Shown: piece by piece, positions 43,824 to 50,980 of the stretch
Layout: every line of letters starts with the position of its first letter
Position numbering within the stretch: position 1 is the first letter of the stretch
Virus record (IMG/VR): IMGVR_UViG_3300033072_000306
Coordinates: 1-64,000 of that record
Length of the DNA stretch: 64,000 bases
Origin: a virus
Taxonomy: Duplodnaviria > Caudoviricetes
Reading direction: 5' to 3' (one strand)
The notes under the pieces: model-generated
What the model saw: the letters and a program-made list of their open reading frames with translations, nothing else
Databases searched by the model: none
Told to the model about the DNA's origin: nothing
Program-made: the position numbers and the translations under genes

Positions 43824-44138
43824 TCAACCACCTTGTTCCTTAATAACCTCTAACATATCAACAGTAGAAGTGAGGGTATTAATAACACCATCAAAATCAC
43901 CACTATCAACAACACTTACCAACTCTTTAAACTTCTTAGTAGATAATCCAAAAGTTTCCTTAGCAACAATCTTCAAGTCTTCATTGAGATTCTTAGCACG
44001 ACTCTTCTGTTGTTCCAACTCAATTGAGAATCGCTTTAACTCCTTAACTAAAGCCTCACGTTTCTCTTTAGAAATCATAATCTCATCTAATGCAATACGA
44101 TCTGATTCTGCTACTGGTTTACGTCCAGCGTTACTCAT
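43824..44138 (-). CDS. DsbA/GapR-like dsDNA-binding protein
   Basis: Helical E.K...E..K......K.TFGL..K.F..LV pattern. Confidence 0.55.
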   Translation of the reverse strand: MSNAGRKPVAESDRIALDEIMISKEKREALVKELKRFSIELEQQKSRAKNLNEDLKIVAKETFGLSTKKFKELVSVVDSGDFDGVINTLTSTVDMLEVIKEQGG

Positions 44139-44706
44139 AATTTATTCTCCAATTCTTTCATTTCAAGTTCTTTCCAAAGTTTATCTAAGTCCAACACTGG
44201 AGCATCTTTCTTAGCATCCTTTAACATCATTTCAAGGTTCTCAATAAGCTCCTCTTTAGTTTCACCAGAGGGTTCTATAAATCTTTCTGTTGTTAACCAC
44301 AAGTCACCTTTATCGTTGTAGTAGGCTTCTGTCAACCCATACTCAATTTCCTCAACACCGTTGAATACATGTCGTTTAAATCCAATGCGATAATTCCAAT
44401 GTGACATTAAACATACTCCCAAGACTTAACTACAACTGTTTTCTCAACTGGTCTCACCTCTGACAATTCAACACCTTTATCATCTTCGATGTGAGGGTAG
44501 TAGTAATCAGAGTAATAACTTCCAGAACGAGAGATTTCATACTTATAGTATTTACCAGACTCATTGTTCATCACCACACAGGCTTGATATTCATATTTAC
44601 CAGATGAAACCCAATCTCCTTCCTCAATCATTGTCCAAAGATAATCTTCAGAGAACTTTTCAGGTGATTCTTCAACCTCTTCAAAATCTTCTAAATTTAA
44701 AAACAT
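44135..44706 (-). other. hypothetical CDSs 44135-44422 (WNYR...EAYY) and 44407-44706 (acidic); also 43205-43399, 43580-43831
   Basis: ORF track. Confidence 0.6.
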
Positions 44707-44722
44707 AATACATCTTCTCCAA

Positions 44723-45049
44723 TTATTTACGTTTAGTTTGTTTGTTACGTTCTCGATAATACCTTTCTACTTTAGGACGTATCTTATCATACATCTTACC
44801 AAAACATTGTGGATACTGTCTATCCATAACATCAATTAAAGACCTATAAATCGCCATAAGCTCCTCTTCAGAAGCATCGTCATGCTCACCTAACCACAAC
44901 CCCTTACGGAACGCTGAACGCACTTGAGAGGCTAATGGAGTGAATGTAAATCTACGATGGTCTAAGTCTTTTTCTTCTGGTTTAGGTGTGCCATGACTTT
45001 GATCCCATTTCGTAAAGGGTAAGATATTACCATACTCATCTGTTGCCAT
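44723..45049 (-). CDS. hypothetical 108-aa protein with basic C-terminus
   Basis: ATG at 45049 after AAGGAGAG. Confidence 0.75.
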   Translation of the reverse strand: MATDEYGNILPFTKWDQSHGTPKPEEKDLDHRRFTFTPLASQVRSAFRKGLWLGEHDDASEEELMAIYRSLIDVMDRQYPQCFGKMYDKIRPKVERYYRERNKQTKRK

Positions 45050-45067
45050 ATTTTCTCTCCTTAAATT

Positions 45068-45654
45068 TAAAATTAACAATGACAACGTGCGAATAGTTGC
45101 ATTCAGTGGCTCTGCTTCTCTTGTACTTCGATACTACCTGTGTCGCCCACAGACGTATTATGAATAATACAACATTGTTAATTTTAGATAGTGTTCACCC
45201 TGTAACGACATTGCAAATAGTTACACAAACAGTCTATGCATATACTCACTGGATATACTTTCAACAACTGAATGAACCAAATTGAAGTAATGAACACTAT
45301 CTAAAATTAATATCGCCTTTTACCGACACAGATAAGGCTGATCTGCTTTTTATTATGTCTGAATGATTATTTTCAACCTTAGCAGAGGTTGCCCATGAAG
45401 AATGTACTCTACTTTTATATATGACTAAGGAGGTAGCAGTGATACACACTACAAAGTCTTCGAGTATTTAACATGTAATTGGCGTTACACATTAAACCAA
45501 GCCTAAGCTCTTTAAACTAAACCTAAGCTCTGTACAAACGCCATCATTCTAATGGCATACTTAAAATTAACTTTAGTAGAATGTTTGTGAGTTGGACTTG
45601 GTATCCTTAGCGAAATCTATTCACACAGCGACAAACATTCTACTAAAGTTAATT
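45068..45654 (-). ncRNA. putative structured RNA or array of RNAs downstream of tRNA-Arg
   Basis: Perfect inverted repeats of 14, 20 and 24 bp enclosing small hairpins; 20-nt tandem repeat; no credible sense ORF. Confidence 0.6.
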
Positions 45655-45730
45655 GGTGAGCCGTGAGGAACTTGAATCCCCATACCTCGAAGTAGAATTT
45701 CGATGCATTATCCAATTATGCTAACGACCC
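45654..45730 (-). tRNA. tRNA-Arg (UCU) with encoded CCA
   Basis: Cloverleaf GGGTCGT/ACGGCTC acceptor, GCAT/ATGC D stem, TCGAA-ATTCTAC-TTCGA anticodon arm, GGGGA-TTCAAGT-TCCTC T arm. Confidence 0.9.
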
Positions 45731-45815
45731 ATTTAACAATGAGAGCACCCTAGAACACTCTCACGAATTTTTATTTAACTAAATGCATACTTGTATGTCA
45801 CTGTCTATTTATAGA

Positions 45816-46439
45816 CTACCACTGATCATCTTCATTCTCTTGAGAATCTTCTGCAACTACAGCAGTCTCTTGAGCTTTAGCATTAGGATTTTCAGCTAAT
45901 GATTTAACTTTACCTAAAGCACTAAACTTCTCAGTTACATCCCCACCTTTAGAGACATATTCATCAAGCTCTTCAACTTTGATAGCAACAAGATTAGCAA
46001 ACTTACCGTACTTGTTTTCGTTGATCTCATATTGAGCAACACCTTTACTACCATTACCAACAAGCTTAGTGAAAGTAATATCTTCAAGCTCACCATCAAC
46101 TTCTTGCAATACTCGTGGGCGGTATTTATCAGCGATTGGAACACGAACACCATCTTTCTCGTAAGATTCATTTTTCTTCAATTTAATGAAGAACTGCTCA
46201 TCTGTACCGATTGCATTTGTTTCACCGAACTTCTCAACGAAATCATCGTAATCCATTTCTTTAGGTTTGTTCTTAGGAAATTCCTTACCCCAAGCTTTAG
46301 CTGTTGCTTTATCGACATGAAGATCAACAACATACTCATTACCATCTTCAGGGTTAAACTTTGGTGACGGGTTTTGAATCTTTGTGTAATAAAAACCAAC
46401 ACCTTCGATTACTTGAGCTTCTGTATTTAACTTTGACAT
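45816..46439 (-). CDS. single-stranded DNA-binding protein (T7 gp2.5-like)
   Basis: OB-fold pattern, VGNGSKG, acidic tail ending in an aromatic residue (DDQW). Confidence 0.75.
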   Translation of the reverse strand: MSKLNTEAQVIEGVGFYYTKIQNPSPKFNPEDGNEYVVDLHVDKATAKAWGKEFPKNKPKEMDYDDFVEKFGETNAIGTDEQFFIKLKKNESYEKDGVRVPIADKYRPRVLQEVDGELEDITFTKLVGNGSKGVAQYEINENKYGKFANLVAIKVEELDEYVSKGGDVTEKFSALGKVKSLAENPNAKAQETAVVAEDSQENEDDQW

Positions 46440-46592
46440 ATTTAAATTGTTTCCTTATTTAGTTTGTATAATGAATGTCATTAACATTCTTGCATTTGCT
46501 ACAATAGTTGGAAGTAACTTACATCTCCAAATATTAATGTGTATCTAAACATTAATTAAAAATTAAATTTAATTGCTGTCTTGATGTTGTGT

Positions 46593-46621
46593 ATTCTATT
46601 AAAACCTAAAGGTCTAAGCAA
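46593..46621 (-). promoter_or_regulatory. sigma70-type promoter for SSB-tRNA-RNA unit
   Basis: TTGCTT-17nt-TAGAAT. Confidence 0.65.
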
Positions 46622-46904
46622 TAGGTTTTTTAAGAATGTTTGTATCTCGTTTGTAACTGTTAAGTTACACCTTTGTAAACGCTATTTATATTAGCTCTTA
46701 CTCTCAGAATCAGTTTCAAAATACTCTATAGGGTTATCTTGAATATCCTTCTTCAAAGTGCTAATAAACTCCGATAAAGCATAGTCACAAAGTTTTGATG
46801 CATATTCACCAAGAATAGCACTAAACTCCTCATGCTTCTCCTCTGCAACGTATGACAACAAACGCTTAATATCTGAAATTAATACTTCACTTTCTTTTGA
46901 CATT

Positions 46905-47642
46905 CTAACTCTCCTGATTACTCTTTAGCTCTTCAATCATAAGCTCAATAGCTTTCTTCATAGTTTCTTGATTACCCCAATAGACAGCATCAATGAACAT
47001 ATACTTGTTACCAACCCAATGAGATTTAACTTTCTCAACTAAAGATTGAAACTCTAAAGAATCTGACAACTGATCTACAAAAGATGGTAAATCATTATCA
47101 ATAGAGTAGTTAATATACCATAAAGCTTTCTTCAACTCTTGCAAATCTTCATCTTTCTTTCCACAACGCCAAACATACTTAACAGCATTACTAATACAAG
47201 CTGGTAGTAAAGATGTAACCTCAATAGCTTCAACACTACAATCATCGGATGTATAGTGCTTAGGGTGATTAACAGTGTCCGCTACAATGTGTACAGCATC
47301 ATCTAGATTATTCACATTTCGTTTCCACACAAGTTTCCCATACTCCTTAACATATTTTTTAATTTCTTGATATGTTGGAAAATCGCTATTTACATTATCA
47401 CTCCAATAAGCGTATGACCATGTATCTTCTAAATCCTTTGTATAGAAAATCAAATCCTTTGTTCCCTCTGGATCACTTCCATCAAAGTAGTAACACTCGT
47501 CAGCTTCCTCTGGAATTTTAATCCAATCAATTCCTCGTGGTTGTCCGCCATCTAAACACTTAAAAGTTTTCTTGTTAATGTATAAATCGTTATTCAAAGT
47601 CGTACTCCCATCCATTCTGATTATGAACACTATATTCACCAA
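46905..47642 (-). CDS. DUF3310 (SaV-like) domain fusion protein
   Basis: VNHPKHY...EAIE...NAVKY.WRCGKK...L.KA.WY. Confidence 0.8.
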   Translation of the reverse strand: MVNIVFIIRMDGSTTLNNDLYINKKTFKCLDGGQPRGIDWIKIPEEADECYYFDGSDPEGTKDLIFYTKDLEDTWSYAYWSDNVNSDFPTYQEIKKYVKEYGKLVWKRNVNNLDDAVHIVADTVNHPKHYTSDDCSVEAIEVTSLLPACISNAVKYVWRCGKKDEDLQELKKALWYINYSIDNDLPSFVDQLSDSLEFQSLVEKVKSHWVGNKYMFIDAVYWGNQETMKKAIELMIEELKSNQES

Positions 47643-47767: not shown

Positions 47768-48016
47768 TTAATACTCACCAATTTGTTGCTTAAACAACCT
47801 TAGTGCTTGTTGGTATGATAACTCACCCTTATCACTTAAACAATACCCTTTGACAATATTTAGTGAAGTTTCTTTATCACCAACCTCACAACTCCATATT
47901 AAAGAGTATTTCTTAGATAACTTCTTAGCAAGAGTTAATGATAATCCCTCATCAACAATGAAAGCTTCCTTGCTCTCAGAGTTGATTACGAATATGTTGT
48001 ATAGTATCTTAGTTAT
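47768..48016 (-). CDS. 82-aa ORF with apparent ATA start (or start-codon pseudogene)
   Basis: GGAG-7nt-ATA, in-frame TAA just upstream, fills the gap exactly. Confidence 0.5.
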   Translation of the reverse strand: MTKILYNIFVINSESKEAFIVDEGLSLTLAKKLSKKYSLIWSCEVGDKETSLNIVKGYCLSDKGELSYQQALRLFKQQIGEY

Positions 48017-48945
48017 AAATTGTCTCCTTTAGTGGCATAGTTAAACAATTGCACAAACTCCTCTTTGTCGATATAAGAAAAACATTCAGTATATCCTTGA
48101 AAGTCGTTCTTTGGAGAATATTTGAAATCTAAGAATAAGTTGTGCATAAGTCTTTCCATATTATAAATAACCTTTGCAGATTTATGAAAACAATACTCCA
48201 GTAATTCAACTTTGTATCCAGATGTCCTTGAAATCTCACGCACCCTATCTGCTATGTCTTTAGATATTCCTATTTTATAAAACATTTCATCTCTGCTAGA
48301 TAGTTTCAATAAGTATAAATTACTACCATTTGGGCATACCTTTTCATAATCACTCGCACTATATCCACCACTGATTTTGCCACATTCAGGACAACCATTT
48401 CCAGCTAAATGATAATAAGGAATCTGCTCGAAATTTCCATGTTCCTTGCAACCAATTTTAATAGGATTCCTACATCCAGTATATTCTACATTAGAGTAAT
48501 TATACGTGTTACCATGTTTTAGTGTCGCCTTAGAAATGAAATCTTCCAGACAATCTCTACCTCTAAGATTCCTATTCTCGTCTGAACACCTCTCACAATG
48601 ATGCCCTCTGCTCAGAATCCAGTTGGGTTTAGTTTTGTATTTGCCATGTTTTACGCATTCTACTTCTGTATAATCCAACGACTTAGTATACTTAAAATCA
48701 CAGAAAGAAAACAGGTTAGACTGTTCTCCATGCTTTTCTTCAAACACTCTTTTAAAGTATTCTGTCTTATCACCACAAACACTTTTGAAACCAACTTTAC
48801 ATCCTTTAGCGAGATTTGTTCGTGTAATCTTATGTGTAAATCCGAATGAATCCTCGACAAATATGTAAGGATTCTTCTCTAAGATATATCTGTACCCCAT
48901 AGAAGCACAGATACCCTTATAATCATATTTAATCTTATTAGCCAA
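48013..48945 (-). CDS. free-standing homing endonuclease-like protein (DUF723-type Zn repeats + GIY-YIG/T5orf172-like domain)
   Basis: C..HG repeats, GCPEC, LYLL...YKIGIS...R...E; TTG start after AAGGAG. Confidence 0.75.
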   Translation of the reverse strand: MANKIKYDYKGICASMGYRYILEKNPYIFVEDSFGFTHKITRTNLAKGCKVGFKSVCGDKTEYFKRVFEEKHGEQSNLFSFCDFKYTKSLDYTEVECVKHGKYKTKPNWILSRGHHCERCSDENRNLRGRDCLEDFISKATLKHGNTYNYSNVEYTGCRNPIKIGCKEHGNFEQIPYYHLAGNGCPECGKISGGYSASDYEKVCPNGSNLYLLKLSSRDEMFYKIGISKDIADRVREISRTSGYKVELLEYCFHKSAKVIYNMERLMHNLFLDFKYSPKNDFQGYTECFSYIDKEEFVQLFNYATKGDNL

Positions 48946-48958
48946 TTTATCTCCTTTA

Positions 48959-50980
48959 TTAGTGAATTTCGCTATATTTTGTTCCGAACTGTGTATCACA
49001 ACCAAATTGAATATCAACTTTCAATGTTTTATTTACCATATCTAATGCCTCCTGAAAAATATCTTTCACATATTCATCTGTAAGTGATTGATATTCTTGA
49101 AGATTTTCGTCATGCATTGACATGCACAATTTAAGTTCATCCTTAATTCCATCTCTAACCTTAATGTTGTCGATACATTTCAGCCATAAATCCAGCAAGT
49201 ATGAGCCAGAACCCTGCACAAGCGTTGAGTAGGCATCATGCTCTTTCTTTAAGTAGTACCACATTTTACTATATGGATTCCATTGGTACATGCCATGTGA
49301 AACAGTCTTACGAATCTGATCGTCAGCAATAGCCTTGATACTCCAGTTAAGTTTTTTATAAGCCTTAAAAATTACCCTCGCTTCCTTTTCAGAAATCTTA
49401 GCAGTACGGGCTAGAGTTGGAACACCACAATTATATTGTAGAGCATATCCACAGTTTTTACCTATGCCACGCTTTTTGCTGATTACTTTAATCAAGGCAT
49501 TCTTTTCTTCATCAGACATATTAAGCATCTTACTTAGTCCATCAGTAAGAGGGTAGTCTTCTTTAGGAAACCCTTTGCTTTCAATCTTAAAGAAATTCAA
49601 TTCGTCTTGTGTAATCAAGCCACCGACTTTAGCCAAAGCAAGGTGTGGGTCATAGTCTTTACTTTGTTGTGAGTACACATAATCTGGATCATACGGCATC
49701 TGATAATTGAAGCTCCACAAGTTCTCCATAGAGCTTAAATCACTACAAACGAATCGCTTACCTTCACGAGCAATAATACATCCACGAACATCCTCACCAT
49801 AGGCTACACGAGATGATGGCAGGTTCACACAAGGTTTACGATGCTTTAGGCGTAGTGTATTTGTAAACCCTTTAGCACCAGCTTCAATGTATTCACCAAA
49901 AATTAGGCTGTCTAAGAAACCTTGAATACTTCCTTTACGATGCTTAACTACACCTAATCCAACAAGAGCTTGAACCTCCTCTGTCTCATCAGCCAGTTTT
50001 TCAATACTTGGACACAACATTCCACCACTTTGAGGAATATAGATTTGAGGAATCTTTCTCTCACTTCCATCCTCGTTTTTGTCATACTTGAATGTTTCAG
50101 GAATCCACCCTAAAGAGAATAGCCAATCTTTAATCTGTTGTGGTGATTGAGGATTTGGTTCATCATAAGACTTGACAGTTTTAATCTCACCATCGAAATC
50201 AAAATCCACTTTAGCCTTTTCAGTAAGCTCTTTCCACTTGATTCCTGTTGCAGATAAACTTCCATCTTTCTTAAATGGTTTTGCTGGTTTAGTGCTTTTA
50301 CTGTAAACAGGAACTTTCGGCATGACACTTTTAAGAAGCTCTGTTTTCTCATCAATAAGAATACTAAACTCTTCAATAAGCTCTTTTGCTCTTGGAACAT
50401 CAATACGTAATCGAGTGTTTTGTTGTTCAGCAAGTTGCTCCATCTTAAAGTTTAAATATTTAACAACTCGATGTGTGCAAAATTCATAGTCCGACATTTC
50501 ACCATAAAGCTCTTCAAATCTTGCCTTGAGTTTTTTATATGTGTACTCTTGGATTTTTACATCTTCTTGAACACGGTTATCGTAATCATCTTGTGTTAAA
50601 TTTTCCCAATCATTAATAACAGGTTTAGGTACACCAGCTTCAATACCATAGTCTTCAAGACCATGCTTTGCACGATTTAAGTCTAAGTACCAAGATAATG
50701 CTAATGTATCTACAAAATGAATCTTACTTACATCATATCCAAAATGAATCAAGGCATTCTTGTCGTAGCAAATACCATTGTGCATAATCAATATGATTTC
50801 ACGATTTAGAAATTTACCAAGCGTCTCTTTTTCTTTTTCAGTGTTAGCGTGTAGAGTCCACATTTCTCCTGTTTCAACAGATTTAGCACAAAAGTTGTGT
50901 AGCTTTGCTTTGTCTCCCTGCTCAATTAGGTGGTGAAGCAAACCACTCGATTCTAAGTCAGCATTGTATATTTTACACAA
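48959..50980 (-). CDS. family A DNA polymerase (T7-like) with 3'-5' exonuclease
   Basis: DLESSGL, HN...YD, SDLSSME (motif A), R...K...Y...Y (B), HDE (C). Confidence 0.95.
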   Translation of the reverse strand: MCKIYNADLESSGLLHHLIEQGDKAKLHNFCAKSVETGEMWTLHANTEKEKETLGKFLNREIILIMHNGICYDKNALIHFGYDVSKIHFVDTLALSWYLDLNRAKHGLEDYGIEAGVPKPVINDWENLTQDDYDNRVQEDVKIQEYTYKKLKARFEELYGEMSDYEFCTHRVVKYLNFKMEQLAEQQNTRLRIDVPRAKELIEEFSILIDEKTELLKSVMPKVPVYSKSTKPAKPFKKDGSLSATGIKWKELTEKAKVDFDFDGEIKTVKSYDEPNPQSPQQIKDWLFSLGWIPETFKYDKNEDGSERKIPQIYIPQSGGMLCPSIEKLADETEEVQALVGLGVVKHRKGSIQGFLDSLIFGEYIEAGAKGFTNTLRLKHRKPCVNLPSSRVAYGEDVRGCIIAREGKRFVCSDLSSMENLWSFNYQMPYDPDYVYSQQSKDYDPHLALAKVGGLITQDELNFFKIESKGFPKEDYPLTDGLSKMLNMSDEEKNALIKVISKKRGIGKNCGYALQYNCGVPTLARTAKISEKEARVIFKAYKKLNWSIKAIADDQIRKTVSHGMYQWNPYSKMWYYLKKEHDAYSTLVQGSGSYLLDLWLKCIDNIKVRDGIKDELKLCMSMHDENLQEYQSLTDEYVKDIFQEALDMVNKTLKVDIQFGCDTQFGTKYSEIH

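What the first reader, a model, noticed from the sequence alone, without database searches (positions are those of the whole stretch)
45068..45654. tRNA-coupled ~590-nt ornate RNA or cassette array with three long closing helices
Seen: a perfect 24-bp inverted repeat (45565-45588/45631-45654) begins at the last base of the tRNA CCA; a perfect 20-bp one spans 45178-45197/45291-45310; a 14-bp one spans 45068-45081/45173-45186. Each encloses 2-4 small hairpins (e.g. GTATTA-TTCA-TAATAC, CTGTG-GGCGA-CACAG, GTGAA-TAGAT-TTCGC). All three are bounded by TTAA and the first two share the TTAA at 45178-45181; YTAAAATTAAY recurs at 45067, 45177 (rev), 45301 and 45561. Elements 1 and 2 share TGYAACTATTYGCA near their 3' ends, differing only by transitions. 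GCTWAGG occurs four times on the minus strand and a 20-nt tandem repeat (18/20) sits at 45492-45531. Known: large phage ncRNAs such as ROOL and GOLLD lie beside tRNAs, and >=20-bp stems are RNase III substrates. Inference: a co-transcribed novel RNA, or several small RNAs excised from the SSB-tRNA transcript.
Basis: partly seen in the sequence, partly recalled or inferred. Interest (0 to 1): 0.8.

Follow-up and report, generated by a model that had tools for sequence, protein, structure and literature searches.

The report
Swappable stem-closed RNA modules behind tRNA
The 600-base gene-free stretch after this phage's tRNA-Arg gene is not one big RNA: it is a row of separate folded RNA modules, each closed by a long stem, that related Acinetobacter phages gain, lose and swap one at a time, and one module belongs to a conserved cloverleaf-shaped RNA family that has no Rfam match and that I found described in no paper.

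Summary
The three perfect inverted repeats (24, 20 and 14 bp) are the only ones of that kind in the whole 89-kb phage genome; shuffles give 0.1.

All genes here are on the minus strand, and the minus strand folds better (z -6.8 against -3.6). In relatives, wobble pairs occur only in that sense.

Three related contigs show the parts are independent:
- one has an extra tRNA and different interiors inside the same stems;
- one lacks the tRNA and modules E2 and E1;
- one has an HNH endonuclease gene in place of the array.

E1 (45068-45186) belongs to a covarying cloverleaf-like family. It occurs once per genome in at least 50 Acinetobacter phage records from three unrelated groups, often with its own sigma-70 promoter and sometimes next to tRNAs.

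E3 recurs after tRNA-Tyr in Mithridates and AM24 with seven compensatory pairs.

The closing stems share a short motif with stems that enclose a true tRNA or tRNA-like RNAs in other phages.

Rfam matches nothing except tRNA.

Best reading: a co-transcribed array of small RNAs, probably released by host RNase III. Transcription, processing and function are all untested.

Earlier notes of this scan describe the same module families in other Acinetobacter phages.

The parts
45740..45764 (-). Conserved hairpin between the stop of the 207-aa gene and the tRNA. It is present in all four related loci, including the one without the array.
   Evidence: Read from the sequence and seen in L035, L036 and L037. 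Its function was not tested.
45654..45730 (-). tRNA-Arg (anticodon TCT), the first element of the array.
   Evidence: ARAGORN; Rfam tRNA at 53.2 bits. It is the only tRNA in the 89-kb genome.
45565..45654 (-). Module E3: a perfect 24-bp closing stem that starts at the last base of the CCA and encloses a 42-nt three-way junction with two small hairpins.
   Evidence: A homologue follows tRNA-Tyr in Mithridates, Bestia and AM24. Seven of 20 pairs changed on both sides, 96.7% of cells are paired, and one U-G pair is conserved in the sense strand.
45311..45564 (-). Module M: about 250 nt holding at least five hairpins, several of which depend on G-U pairs. It includes the 20-nt tandem repeat.
   Evidence: It is 94-97% identical in L035 and L037, while the upstream gene is only 72-77% identical. 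Nine of 11 substitutions at predicted pairs keep the pair. No homologue was found in 50,697 phage records.
45178..45310 (-). Module E2: a perfect 20-bp closing stem enclosing 93 nt. In the relative L008/L035 the arms are conserved but the interior is unrelated.
   Evidence: The E1 model gives only a weak match (15.7 bits with filters off), driven by a hairpin that resembles P4 of E1. The L008 arms contain a U-G pair in the sense strand.
45068..45186 (-). Module E1: a cloverleaf-like four-way junction. P1 is 45173-45186 with 45068-45081; an extra hairpin is at 45155-45170; P2 is 45138-45152; P3 is variable; P4 is 45082-45100 and stacks directly on the 3' strand of P1.
   Evidence: Covariance model R1 scores 69.9 bits, E 2e-16, at 45069-45168. 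Family alignment A1 shows covariation in P1 and P2. Identity to phage IME-Ap7 is 90% over 71 nt.
45047..45060 (-). Ribosome-binding site and ATG (45049-45047) of the downstream 108-aa gene (44723-45049), about 10 nt after the 3' arm of E1.
   Evidence: Sequence. The orthologue in L036 begins MAVDEYG at the same position.

Best explanation
The stretch 45050-45653 is an array of at least four separate structured RNA genes on the minus strand, in the order tRNA-Arg, E3, M, E2, E1. It lies between a 207-aa replication-region gene and a 108-aa gene.

Inferred: the array is transcribed as one untranslated precursor together with the tRNA. Each module folds on its own because its ends pair into a long closing helix. 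The perfect 20- and 24-bp helices are cut by host RNase III. That cut would free the modules and also open the tRNA's 3' trailer, which is otherwise locked in a duplex from the CCA onward.

Shown: the modules are evolutionary units. Related phages keep the closing stems and exchange, lose or gain the interiors. The same kind of stem, sharing a short motif, encloses a true tRNA or tRNA-like RNAs in other Acinetobacter phages.

E1 is a member of a strongly conserved cloverleaf-shaped RNA family. Unrelated Acinetobacter phages carry it as a single-copy gene, usually with its own promoter.

Inferred: E1 acts in trans on something common to the host, most likely a tRNA-handling factor. Its target is unknown.
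For: Strand:
- All flanking genes and the tRNA are on the minus strand.
- The minus-strand fold is -170 kcal/mol, z -6.75; the plus-strand fold is -134, z -3.58.
- U-G pairs occur only in the sense strand: in E1 P1 (5 sequences), in E3 of Mithridates and AM24, in the E2 arms of L008 and in M.

Independence of the modules:
- L008/L035 has tRNA-Arg plus tRNA-Met. Its E3-type stem again starts at the last tRNA base but has a 143-nt different interior. Its E2 arms are the same with an unrelated interior. M and E1 are about 97% and 95% identical.
- L037 has no tRNA and lacks E2 and E1.
- L036 has an HNH_3 endonuclease ORF in place of the array.

E1 family:
- 24 distinct sequences give 92.9% paired cells against 84.8% in shuffles, and a covariation score of 0.253 against 0.130 (0 of 500 shuffles reach it). 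Eight pairs changed on both sides.
- It occurs at one place per record in 48 phage records and in 22 IMG/VR stretches.
- Strong promoter-like sites end 2-7 nt before the model start in three loci.
- Same-strand tRNAs lie within 1.5 kb in 6 of 27 loci.

E3: 7 of 20 pairs are compensatory.

A true tRNA sits inside a closing stem in IME-Ap7.

The three stems are the only long perfect inverted repeats in the genome.
Against: - There are no expression data, so transcription, co-transcription and discrete ends are unshown.
- No convincing promoter or terminator was found in the region.
- In this genome the 20- and 24-bp stems are perfect Watson-Crick duplexes without a single wobble. Selection on RNA does not need that, and it also fits a DNA-level copying or recombination process.
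- The interior of E2 has no homologue and so no covariation support.
- The proposed P2-P4 loop contact in E1 (GCGA with UCGC) is invariant, so it cannot be tested by covariation.
- The phage encodes no RNase III, so processing would depend on the host.
- No partner protein is conserved next to E1, and its function is unknown.
Confidence: 0.6

Rival explanations
1. DNA-level mobile cassettes: the inverted repeats are terminal repeats or recombination joints of small mobile DNA elements (MITE-like or integron-like), and any RNA folding is incidental.
For: The arms are perfect, without wobble, in this genome. TTAA lies at every boundary, and the tRNA insertion is also flanked by TTAA. Presence or absence falls exactly at module borders, and conserved arms enclose unrelated interiors. 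A homing-type HNH gene occupies the same locus in L036.
Against: Each element has one copy per genome, with no other copy in this genome. No integrase was found; transposase families were not searched for. The 19-nt core of E1 is found in only 2 of 185,579 species genomes, and neither is titled Acinetobacter. The closing stems of the E1 family differ in sequence yet keep pairing, which is the opposite of transposase-recognised ends. Relatives have U-G pairs that would be C-A mismatches on the other strand. The interiors themselves covary.
Confidence: 0.15
2. Decaying tRNA cluster: E2, E3 and M are eroding remnants of tRNA genes and their spacers, with no function of their own.
For: The E3-type interior of L035 and L037 is homologous to a 162-nt tRNA-like module carried by 39 phage records. 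IME-Ap7 has a real tRNA inside the same kind of stem. The Mithridates spacers hold low-scoring tRNA-like sequences. The interior of E2 has no homologue anywhere.
Against: M is 94-97% conserved while the neighbouring gene is 72-77%. The E1 core is invariant across unrelated phage groups. E3 keeps 96.7% pairing through seven double changes. Neutral decay would not maintain perfect 20-24-bp helices.
Confidence: 0.1
3. Cis-acting leader of the downstream 108-aa gene: the stems are RNase III or stability elements that set the 5' end and translation of that mRNA, as the R sites do in T7.
For: E1 ends about 10 nt before the ribosome-binding site here and in L008, and about 25 nt before the tail-tube gene's ribosome-binding site in Friunavirus.
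Against: L036 and L037 express the same gene without E1. In other phages E1 precedes tRNAs, other RNA modules or a terminator, and it follows unrelated genes. A leader of 600 nt is far more than such control needs.
Confidence: 0.1
4. One large ornate RNA of about 590 nt, comparable to GOLLD or ROOL, with the three stems as domains of a single fold.
For: It is next to a tRNA, it is long and gene-free, and its fold is very stable.
Against: No Rfam match at E up to 1. The domains are independently present or absent in close relatives. E1 and E3 occur alone in other phages.
Confidence: 0.05

Closest known systems
Small stable RNAs in the phage T4 tRNA gene cluster (species 1 and 2, also called RNA C and D); from my own knowledge, not checked here
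   Same: They are non-tRNA structured RNAs on the same strand as phage tRNAs, presumably cut from a common precursor, with unknown function.
   Different: The present modules have long perfect closing duplexes, are exchanged between unrelated phages, and E1 usually has its own promoter away from tRNAs.
RNase III processing stalks (rRNA operon stalks around 16S and 23S; T7 early R sites); established knowledge
   Same: Leader and trailer pair into a duplex of about 20 bp or more around a structured RNA. In IME-Ap7 such a stem encloses a real tRNA.
   Different: Here the stems share a short sequence motif across phages and mark the borders of exchangeable units. Cleavage is not shown.
GOLLD and ROOL RNAs (Rfam)
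   Same: Phage-borne, next to tRNAs, large gene-free structured region.
   Different: No model match. This is an array of independent modules of 90-250 nt each, not one conserved fold of 500-800 nt.
Bacterial and phage Y RNAs (YrlA type, Rfam RF02553)
   Same: A long closing stem carries a tRNA-like domain.
   Different: No Ro60/TROVE gene in the phage. No YrlA match in the window, and only a chance-level hit over real tRNAs in Mithridates.
Promoter-early stem-loop (PeSL) mobile cassettes of T4-type phages (Arbiol et al. 2010, PMC2839356; cited from an earlier scan note and my own knowledge, not read here)
   Same: Short conserved stem-loop sequences mark the joints at which phage genome modules are shuffled.
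   Different: PeSLs flank protein genes and contain early promoters. Here the stems flank RNA genes, and no promoter was found in them.

Membership tests
GOLLD / ROOL | Match to the Rfam covariance model | tested here: not met
   cmscan of 44000-47000 at E up to 1 found only tRNA plus two chance hits.
GOLLD / ROOL | One conserved multi-domain RNA inherited as a unit | tested here: not met
   The modules are independently present, absent or swapped in L035, L036 and L037.
tRNA (RF00005), for E1, E2 and E3 | Match to the tRNA model or an ARAGORN call | tested here: not met
   Only 45654-45730 is called as tRNA. Relaxed ARAGORN settings gave noise.
tRNA-like cloverleaf topology, for E1 | Four-way junction with a 5-bp arm stacked directly on the 3' strand of the closing stem | tested here: met
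   Alignment A1 and single-sequence folds. The inner 6-7 bp of P1 are conserved and P4 has 5 bp with no linker. That this shapes E1 like a tRNA in three dimensions is inference.
Y RNA / YrlA | Ro60 (TROVE) partner gene, and a match to RF02553 | tested here: not met
   No TROVE match in the 89-kb genome, with controls positive. No YrlA match in the window.
MITE / small transposon | Several dispersed copies with conserved terminal repeats | tested here: not met
   One place per record in 48 records. No other copy in this genome. E1 stems vary in sequence.
MITE / small transposon | Target-site duplication | tested here: inconclusive
   TTAA lies at every border, but the context is A+T-rich and the empty site in L037 does not allow a unique reconstruction.
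RNase III processing stalk | Continuous duplex of about two helical turns formed by the flanks of a structured RNA | tested here: met
   24 bp (E3) and 20 bp (E2), both perfect. E1 has 14-17 bp.
RNase III processing stalk | Cleavage by RNase III in vivo or in vitro | not testable with these tools
   Needs RNA end mapping with and without rnc.
Self-cleaving ribozymes (hammerhead, twister, pistol, hatchet) | Match to the Rfam models | tested here: not met
   No match in the window at E up to 1, in five related loci at E up to 1, or in 18 further loci at gathering score.
RNA anti-CRISPR (CRISPR-repeat mimic) | Similarity to the host CRISPR repeat | tested here: not met
   The A. baumannii I-Fb repeat (sequence confirmed in PMC4338279) aligns with score 16, against a shuffled mean of 15.3; 86 of 200 shuffles score as high.
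Phage attachment site at a tRNA | Integrase gene in the phage | tested here: not met
   No Phage_integrase match.

The most novel reading that the evidence does not exclude
Acinetobacter phages share a slot system for RNA genes. Conserved closing stems would serve twice: in RNA as processing and insulation handles, and in DNA as joints for recombination. Through them unrelated phages would trade tRNAs, tRNA mimics and other folded RNAs as cassettes. The invariant cloverleaf RNA E1 would be a tRNA-shaped effector aimed at a host tRNA-handling or tRNA-cleaving (defence) factor.
Probability: 0.25. Interest if true: 0.85.

Novelty: new variant of a known kind. Interest (0 to 1): 0.6.

Why it matters
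Phage tRNA regions are usually annotated as tRNAs plus empty spacers. Here the spacers hold conserved, covarying RNAs that cross between unrelated phage groups infecting Acinetobacter, including therapy-candidate genera such as Friunavirus and Obolenskvirus. They are unannotated, or overlain by short hypothetical-protein calls, in nearly all of the records found.

If the modules are processed trans-acting RNAs, they form an unexplored layer of phage-host interaction, possibly linked to tRNA-directed host defences. The conserved stems would be a simple natural scaffold for expressing and exchanging structured RNAs.

The E1 family is well enough defined (a covariance model, more than 25 distinct members, cultured carriers) to be tested directly.

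Tried and rejected
- Rfam: searched the window at E up to 1, five related loci at E up to 1 and 18 further loci at gathering score. Only tRNAs matched.
- Megablast against phages found nothing. Only the sensitive mode and per-module queries found homologues.
- The exact loop pattern of E3 is absent from IMG/VR.
- The upstream 207-aa protein found no relatives in IMG/VR.
- A pattern that left the P2 loop free recovered only true E1 members with the same loop, plus chance hits inside genes. The loop-loop contact therefore could not be tested.
- E2 as a paralogue of E1: no hit with default filters and 15.7 bits with filters off. Left as weak.
- Rejected: CRISPR-repeat mimic; Ro60 / Y RNA system; phage-encoded RNase III or RtcB; attP.
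- GCTWAGG is locally enriched but not conserved in relatives, so it is probably not a functional motif.
- Five literature searches found no description of these RNAs. The library misses most subscription journals.
- Genes next to E1 in ten diverse loci show no constant partner.

Full report
**Observation.** ARAGORN and Rfam place tRNA-Arg(TCT) at 45654-45730 on the minus strand, so the 24-bp stem begins at the last base of the CCA. The tandem 20-mer, the shared 14-mer of elements 1 and 2 and the recurring TTAAAATTAAC motif are also real. Four of the twelve GCTWAGG sites of the window lie in this stretch. The window is part of an 89,450-bp IMG/VR phage contig. A scan of the whole genome finds these three as the only perfect inverted repeats of at least 14 bp with a 3-250 nt spacer. 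Shuffled genomes give 0.1 on average. So the feature is real and unique in this phage.

**Strand and setting.** All neighbouring ORFs and the tRNA are on the minus strand. The gene-free stretch runs from the tRNA to the ATG at 45049 of a 108-aa gene. As RNA, the minus strand folds to -170 kcal/mol (z -6.75) and the plus strand to -134 (z -3.58). Its acidic tail ending in tryptophan is compatible with a T7-type SSB but proves nothing. I found no convincing promoter or terminator in the region.

**Not one RNA.** Three related contigs settle this.
- L008/L035 (IMG/VR) matches 45582-44716 at 87.6%. It has tRNA-Arg plus tRNA-Met. It has an E3-type closing stem that again starts at the last tRNA base but holds a 143-nt different interior. 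The middle part M is about 97% identical. E2 has the same arms and an unrelated interior, and E1 is about 95% identical.
- L037 (metagenome) has no tRNA, has the same E3-type module with a perfect 21-bp stem, has M at 94%, and then runs straight into the ribosome-binding site. E2 and E1 are missing.
- L036 has none of it and instead carries a 201-aa HNH_3 endonuclease ORF.

The parts are therefore separate units bounded by the stems. Every border lies at a TTAA.

**E1.** The core of element 1 matches phage IME-Ap7 at 90% over 71 nt. A 21-23-nt piece of it is identical in 48 Acinetobacter phage records, at one place per record, mostly in unannotated gaps. These records include Friunavirus podoviruses and Obolenskvirus myoviruses, and it is also present in the 94-kb phage BS46. 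The 19-mer occurs in 22 IMG/VR stretches but in only 2 of 185,579 prokaryotic species genomes: one a 41-kb contig that looks like a phage, the other a short match only.

Twenty-four distinct sequences align to a common plan:
- P1, a closing stem whose inner 6-7 pairs are conserved and whose outer pairs vary;
- P2, a 5-bp hairpin with a 5-nt loop ending in GCGA;
- P3, a variable region of 25-100 nt;
- P4, a 5-bp hairpin with a 9-nt loop containing UCGC, which abuts the 3' strand of P1 without a linker.

On this structure 92.9% of cells pair, against 84.8% in shuffles. Eight pairs changed on both sides, and the covariation score is 0.253 against 0.130 (0 of 500 shuffles). Slid controls fall to 26-49% paired. 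P2 switches as a whole between CUGUG/CACAG and CCAUG/CAUGG. Five sequences have a U-G pair in P1 that would be C-A on the other strand. P4 is invariant, partly because of how the sequences were collected.

A covariance model (R1) scores the window copy at 69.9 bits. In BS46, L031 and L014 a near-consensus sigma-70 promoter ends 2-7 nt before the model start. In those phages E1 therefore looks like a gene of its own. Its neighbours differ widely: portal, head morphogenesis, terminase, endolysin and Rha-like genes. Six of 27 loci have a tRNA on the same strand within 1.5 kb, in one case 19 nt away. The layout is that of a cloverleaf: a closing stem, three arms, and the last arm stacked on the stem. 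The two complementary loops could form an elbow, but that is inference. A search that left the loop free found no variants to test it.

**E3 and the stems.** E3 has homologues directly after tRNA-Tyr in Mithridates, Bestia and AM24. Of 20 pairs, seven changed on both sides: five in the closing stem and two in the inner hairpin. One U-G pair is conserved and one G-C became G-U, all in the gene sense. Overall 96.7% of cells pair, against 83.5% in shuffles.

The longer E3-type interior of L035 and L037 is homologous to a 162-nt tRNA-like module present in 39 phage records, nearly all unannotated. The window's E3 looks like a shortened version.

The 5' arms of E2, E3, the Mithridates copy and the Obolenskvirus/BS46 modules all contain UUAGA followed by G or U and then A. 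Several have a bulged base at the same place on the 3' arm (read from the sequences). Inside such stems the contents differ by phage:
- IME-Ap7 has a hairpin plus a true tRNA (Rfam 45 bits);
- AP22 has a degenerate tRNA-like sequence;
- WCHABP1 and Mithridates have short unrelated hairpins.

So the stem is a conserved frame and the content varies.

**M and E2.** M has no homologue outside the three relatives. It is better conserved than the flanking gene, and nine of eleven substitutions at predicted pairs keep the pair, mostly through wobble in the gene sense. With three sequences this is modest support. E2's interior is unique. With filters off the E1 model gives it 15.7 bits, through a P4-like hairpin in which one stem pair changed on both sides. 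I treat a relation to E1 as possible, not shown.

**What it is not.** See the membership table for the tests. In brief, the evidence excludes a known Rfam family other than tRNA, a Ro60/Y RNA system, an attachment site of a temperate phage and a mimic of the host CRISPR repeat. An active MITE is unlikely: the elements are single copy, absent from host genomes, their stems vary in sequence, and they have sense-strand wobble pairs.

**Mechanism.** Shown: the units are structured, strand-specific and independently exchangeable, and two of them have wider families. Inferred: they are transcribed with the tRNA as one untranslated precursor. The 20-24-bp duplexes are cut by host RNase III; the phage has none of its own. 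This cut releases the modules and gives exonucleases access to the tRNA trailer, which is base-paired from the CCA onward. The 9-nt overlap between the 3' arm of E2 and the 5' arm of E1 means their full stems cannot coexist, so cutting E2 would let E1 close.

The perfection of the stems here, and the exchange of interiors at conserved arms, suggest that the arms also guide recombination at the DNA level. I cannot separate that from selection on RNA. The function of the released RNAs is unknown. The invariance of the E1 core across phages that share only the host points to a host partner.

**Comparison and novelty.** The nearest known things are the small stable RNAs in the T4 tRNA cluster, RNase III stalks around rRNAs, Y RNAs with tRNA-like domains, GOLLD and ROOL, and PeSL shuffling joints. 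None fits as a family (see the membership table). I found no paper on these RNAs in the held library.

Earlier notes of this scan describe the same cloverleaf module and swappable modules in other Acinetobacter phages. They describe a similar stem scaffold in Pseudomonas prophages. They are unchecked AI notes. My alignment, covariation counts and locus comparisons were made independently here and agree with them.

**Limits.**
- There are no expression data.
- E3 and M rest on three sequences each.
- The E1 alignment was collected through exact matches to its 3' core.
- E-values of model R1 are rough.

Noticed in passing
L036:628-1233 (+), metagenome contig OERT01000993.1: A free-standing HNH_3 endonuclease ORF (201 aa) occupies the same intergenic locus where the window has the tRNA-RNA array. 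A T-arm-like hairpin lies just upstream of it.
   Followed up: partly
L006:2170-2242 (-), Acinetobacter phage IME-Ap7: An unannotated tRNA (Rfam 45 bits) with an irregular anticodon loop (ARAGORN reports 'tRNA-???'). It is enclosed, together with a hairpin, in a long leader-trailer stem.
   Followed up: partly
L009:883-1687, L039:406-1094, L038:1166-1889: Obolenskvirus phages and BS46 carry unannotated gene-free gaps of 690-800 nt. In BS46 and AP22 the unit looks to run from a promoter to a terminator. They are built from E1 plus further shared modules, and 39 records carry the same 162-nt tRNA-like module.
   Followed up: partly
window 45740-45764 (-): A hairpin right after the 207-aa gene is conserved in all four related loci, even where the array is absent. 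No U-tract follows it. Its role is unknown.
   Followed up: no
It ends in an acidic tail with a terminal tryptophan, as T7-type SSBs end in an acidic tail with an aromatic residue. A protein next to E1 in L014 hits the same PHROG of unknown function (phrog_3877).
   Followed up: partly
L033 (CAZPYI010000001.1, 41.6-kb contig of a 'Streptococcus' MAG): It carries a full E1 copy and looks like a misbinned Acinetobacter-type phage contig.
   Followed up: no
window 48013-50980 (-): The DNA polymerase ORF matches only positions 671-1230 of a 1445-position PHROG profile. Its end overlaps an endonuclease/HNH-type ORF (48013-49017). This may be a polymerase gene interrupted by a homing endonuclease.
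   Followed up: no
L005:1293-1607 and 2150-2591, phage Mithridates tRNA cluster: The 'spacers' between annotated tRNAs hold low-scoring tRNA-like sequences (Cys, Ser) and modules shared with Obolenskvirus arrays.
   Followed up: partly
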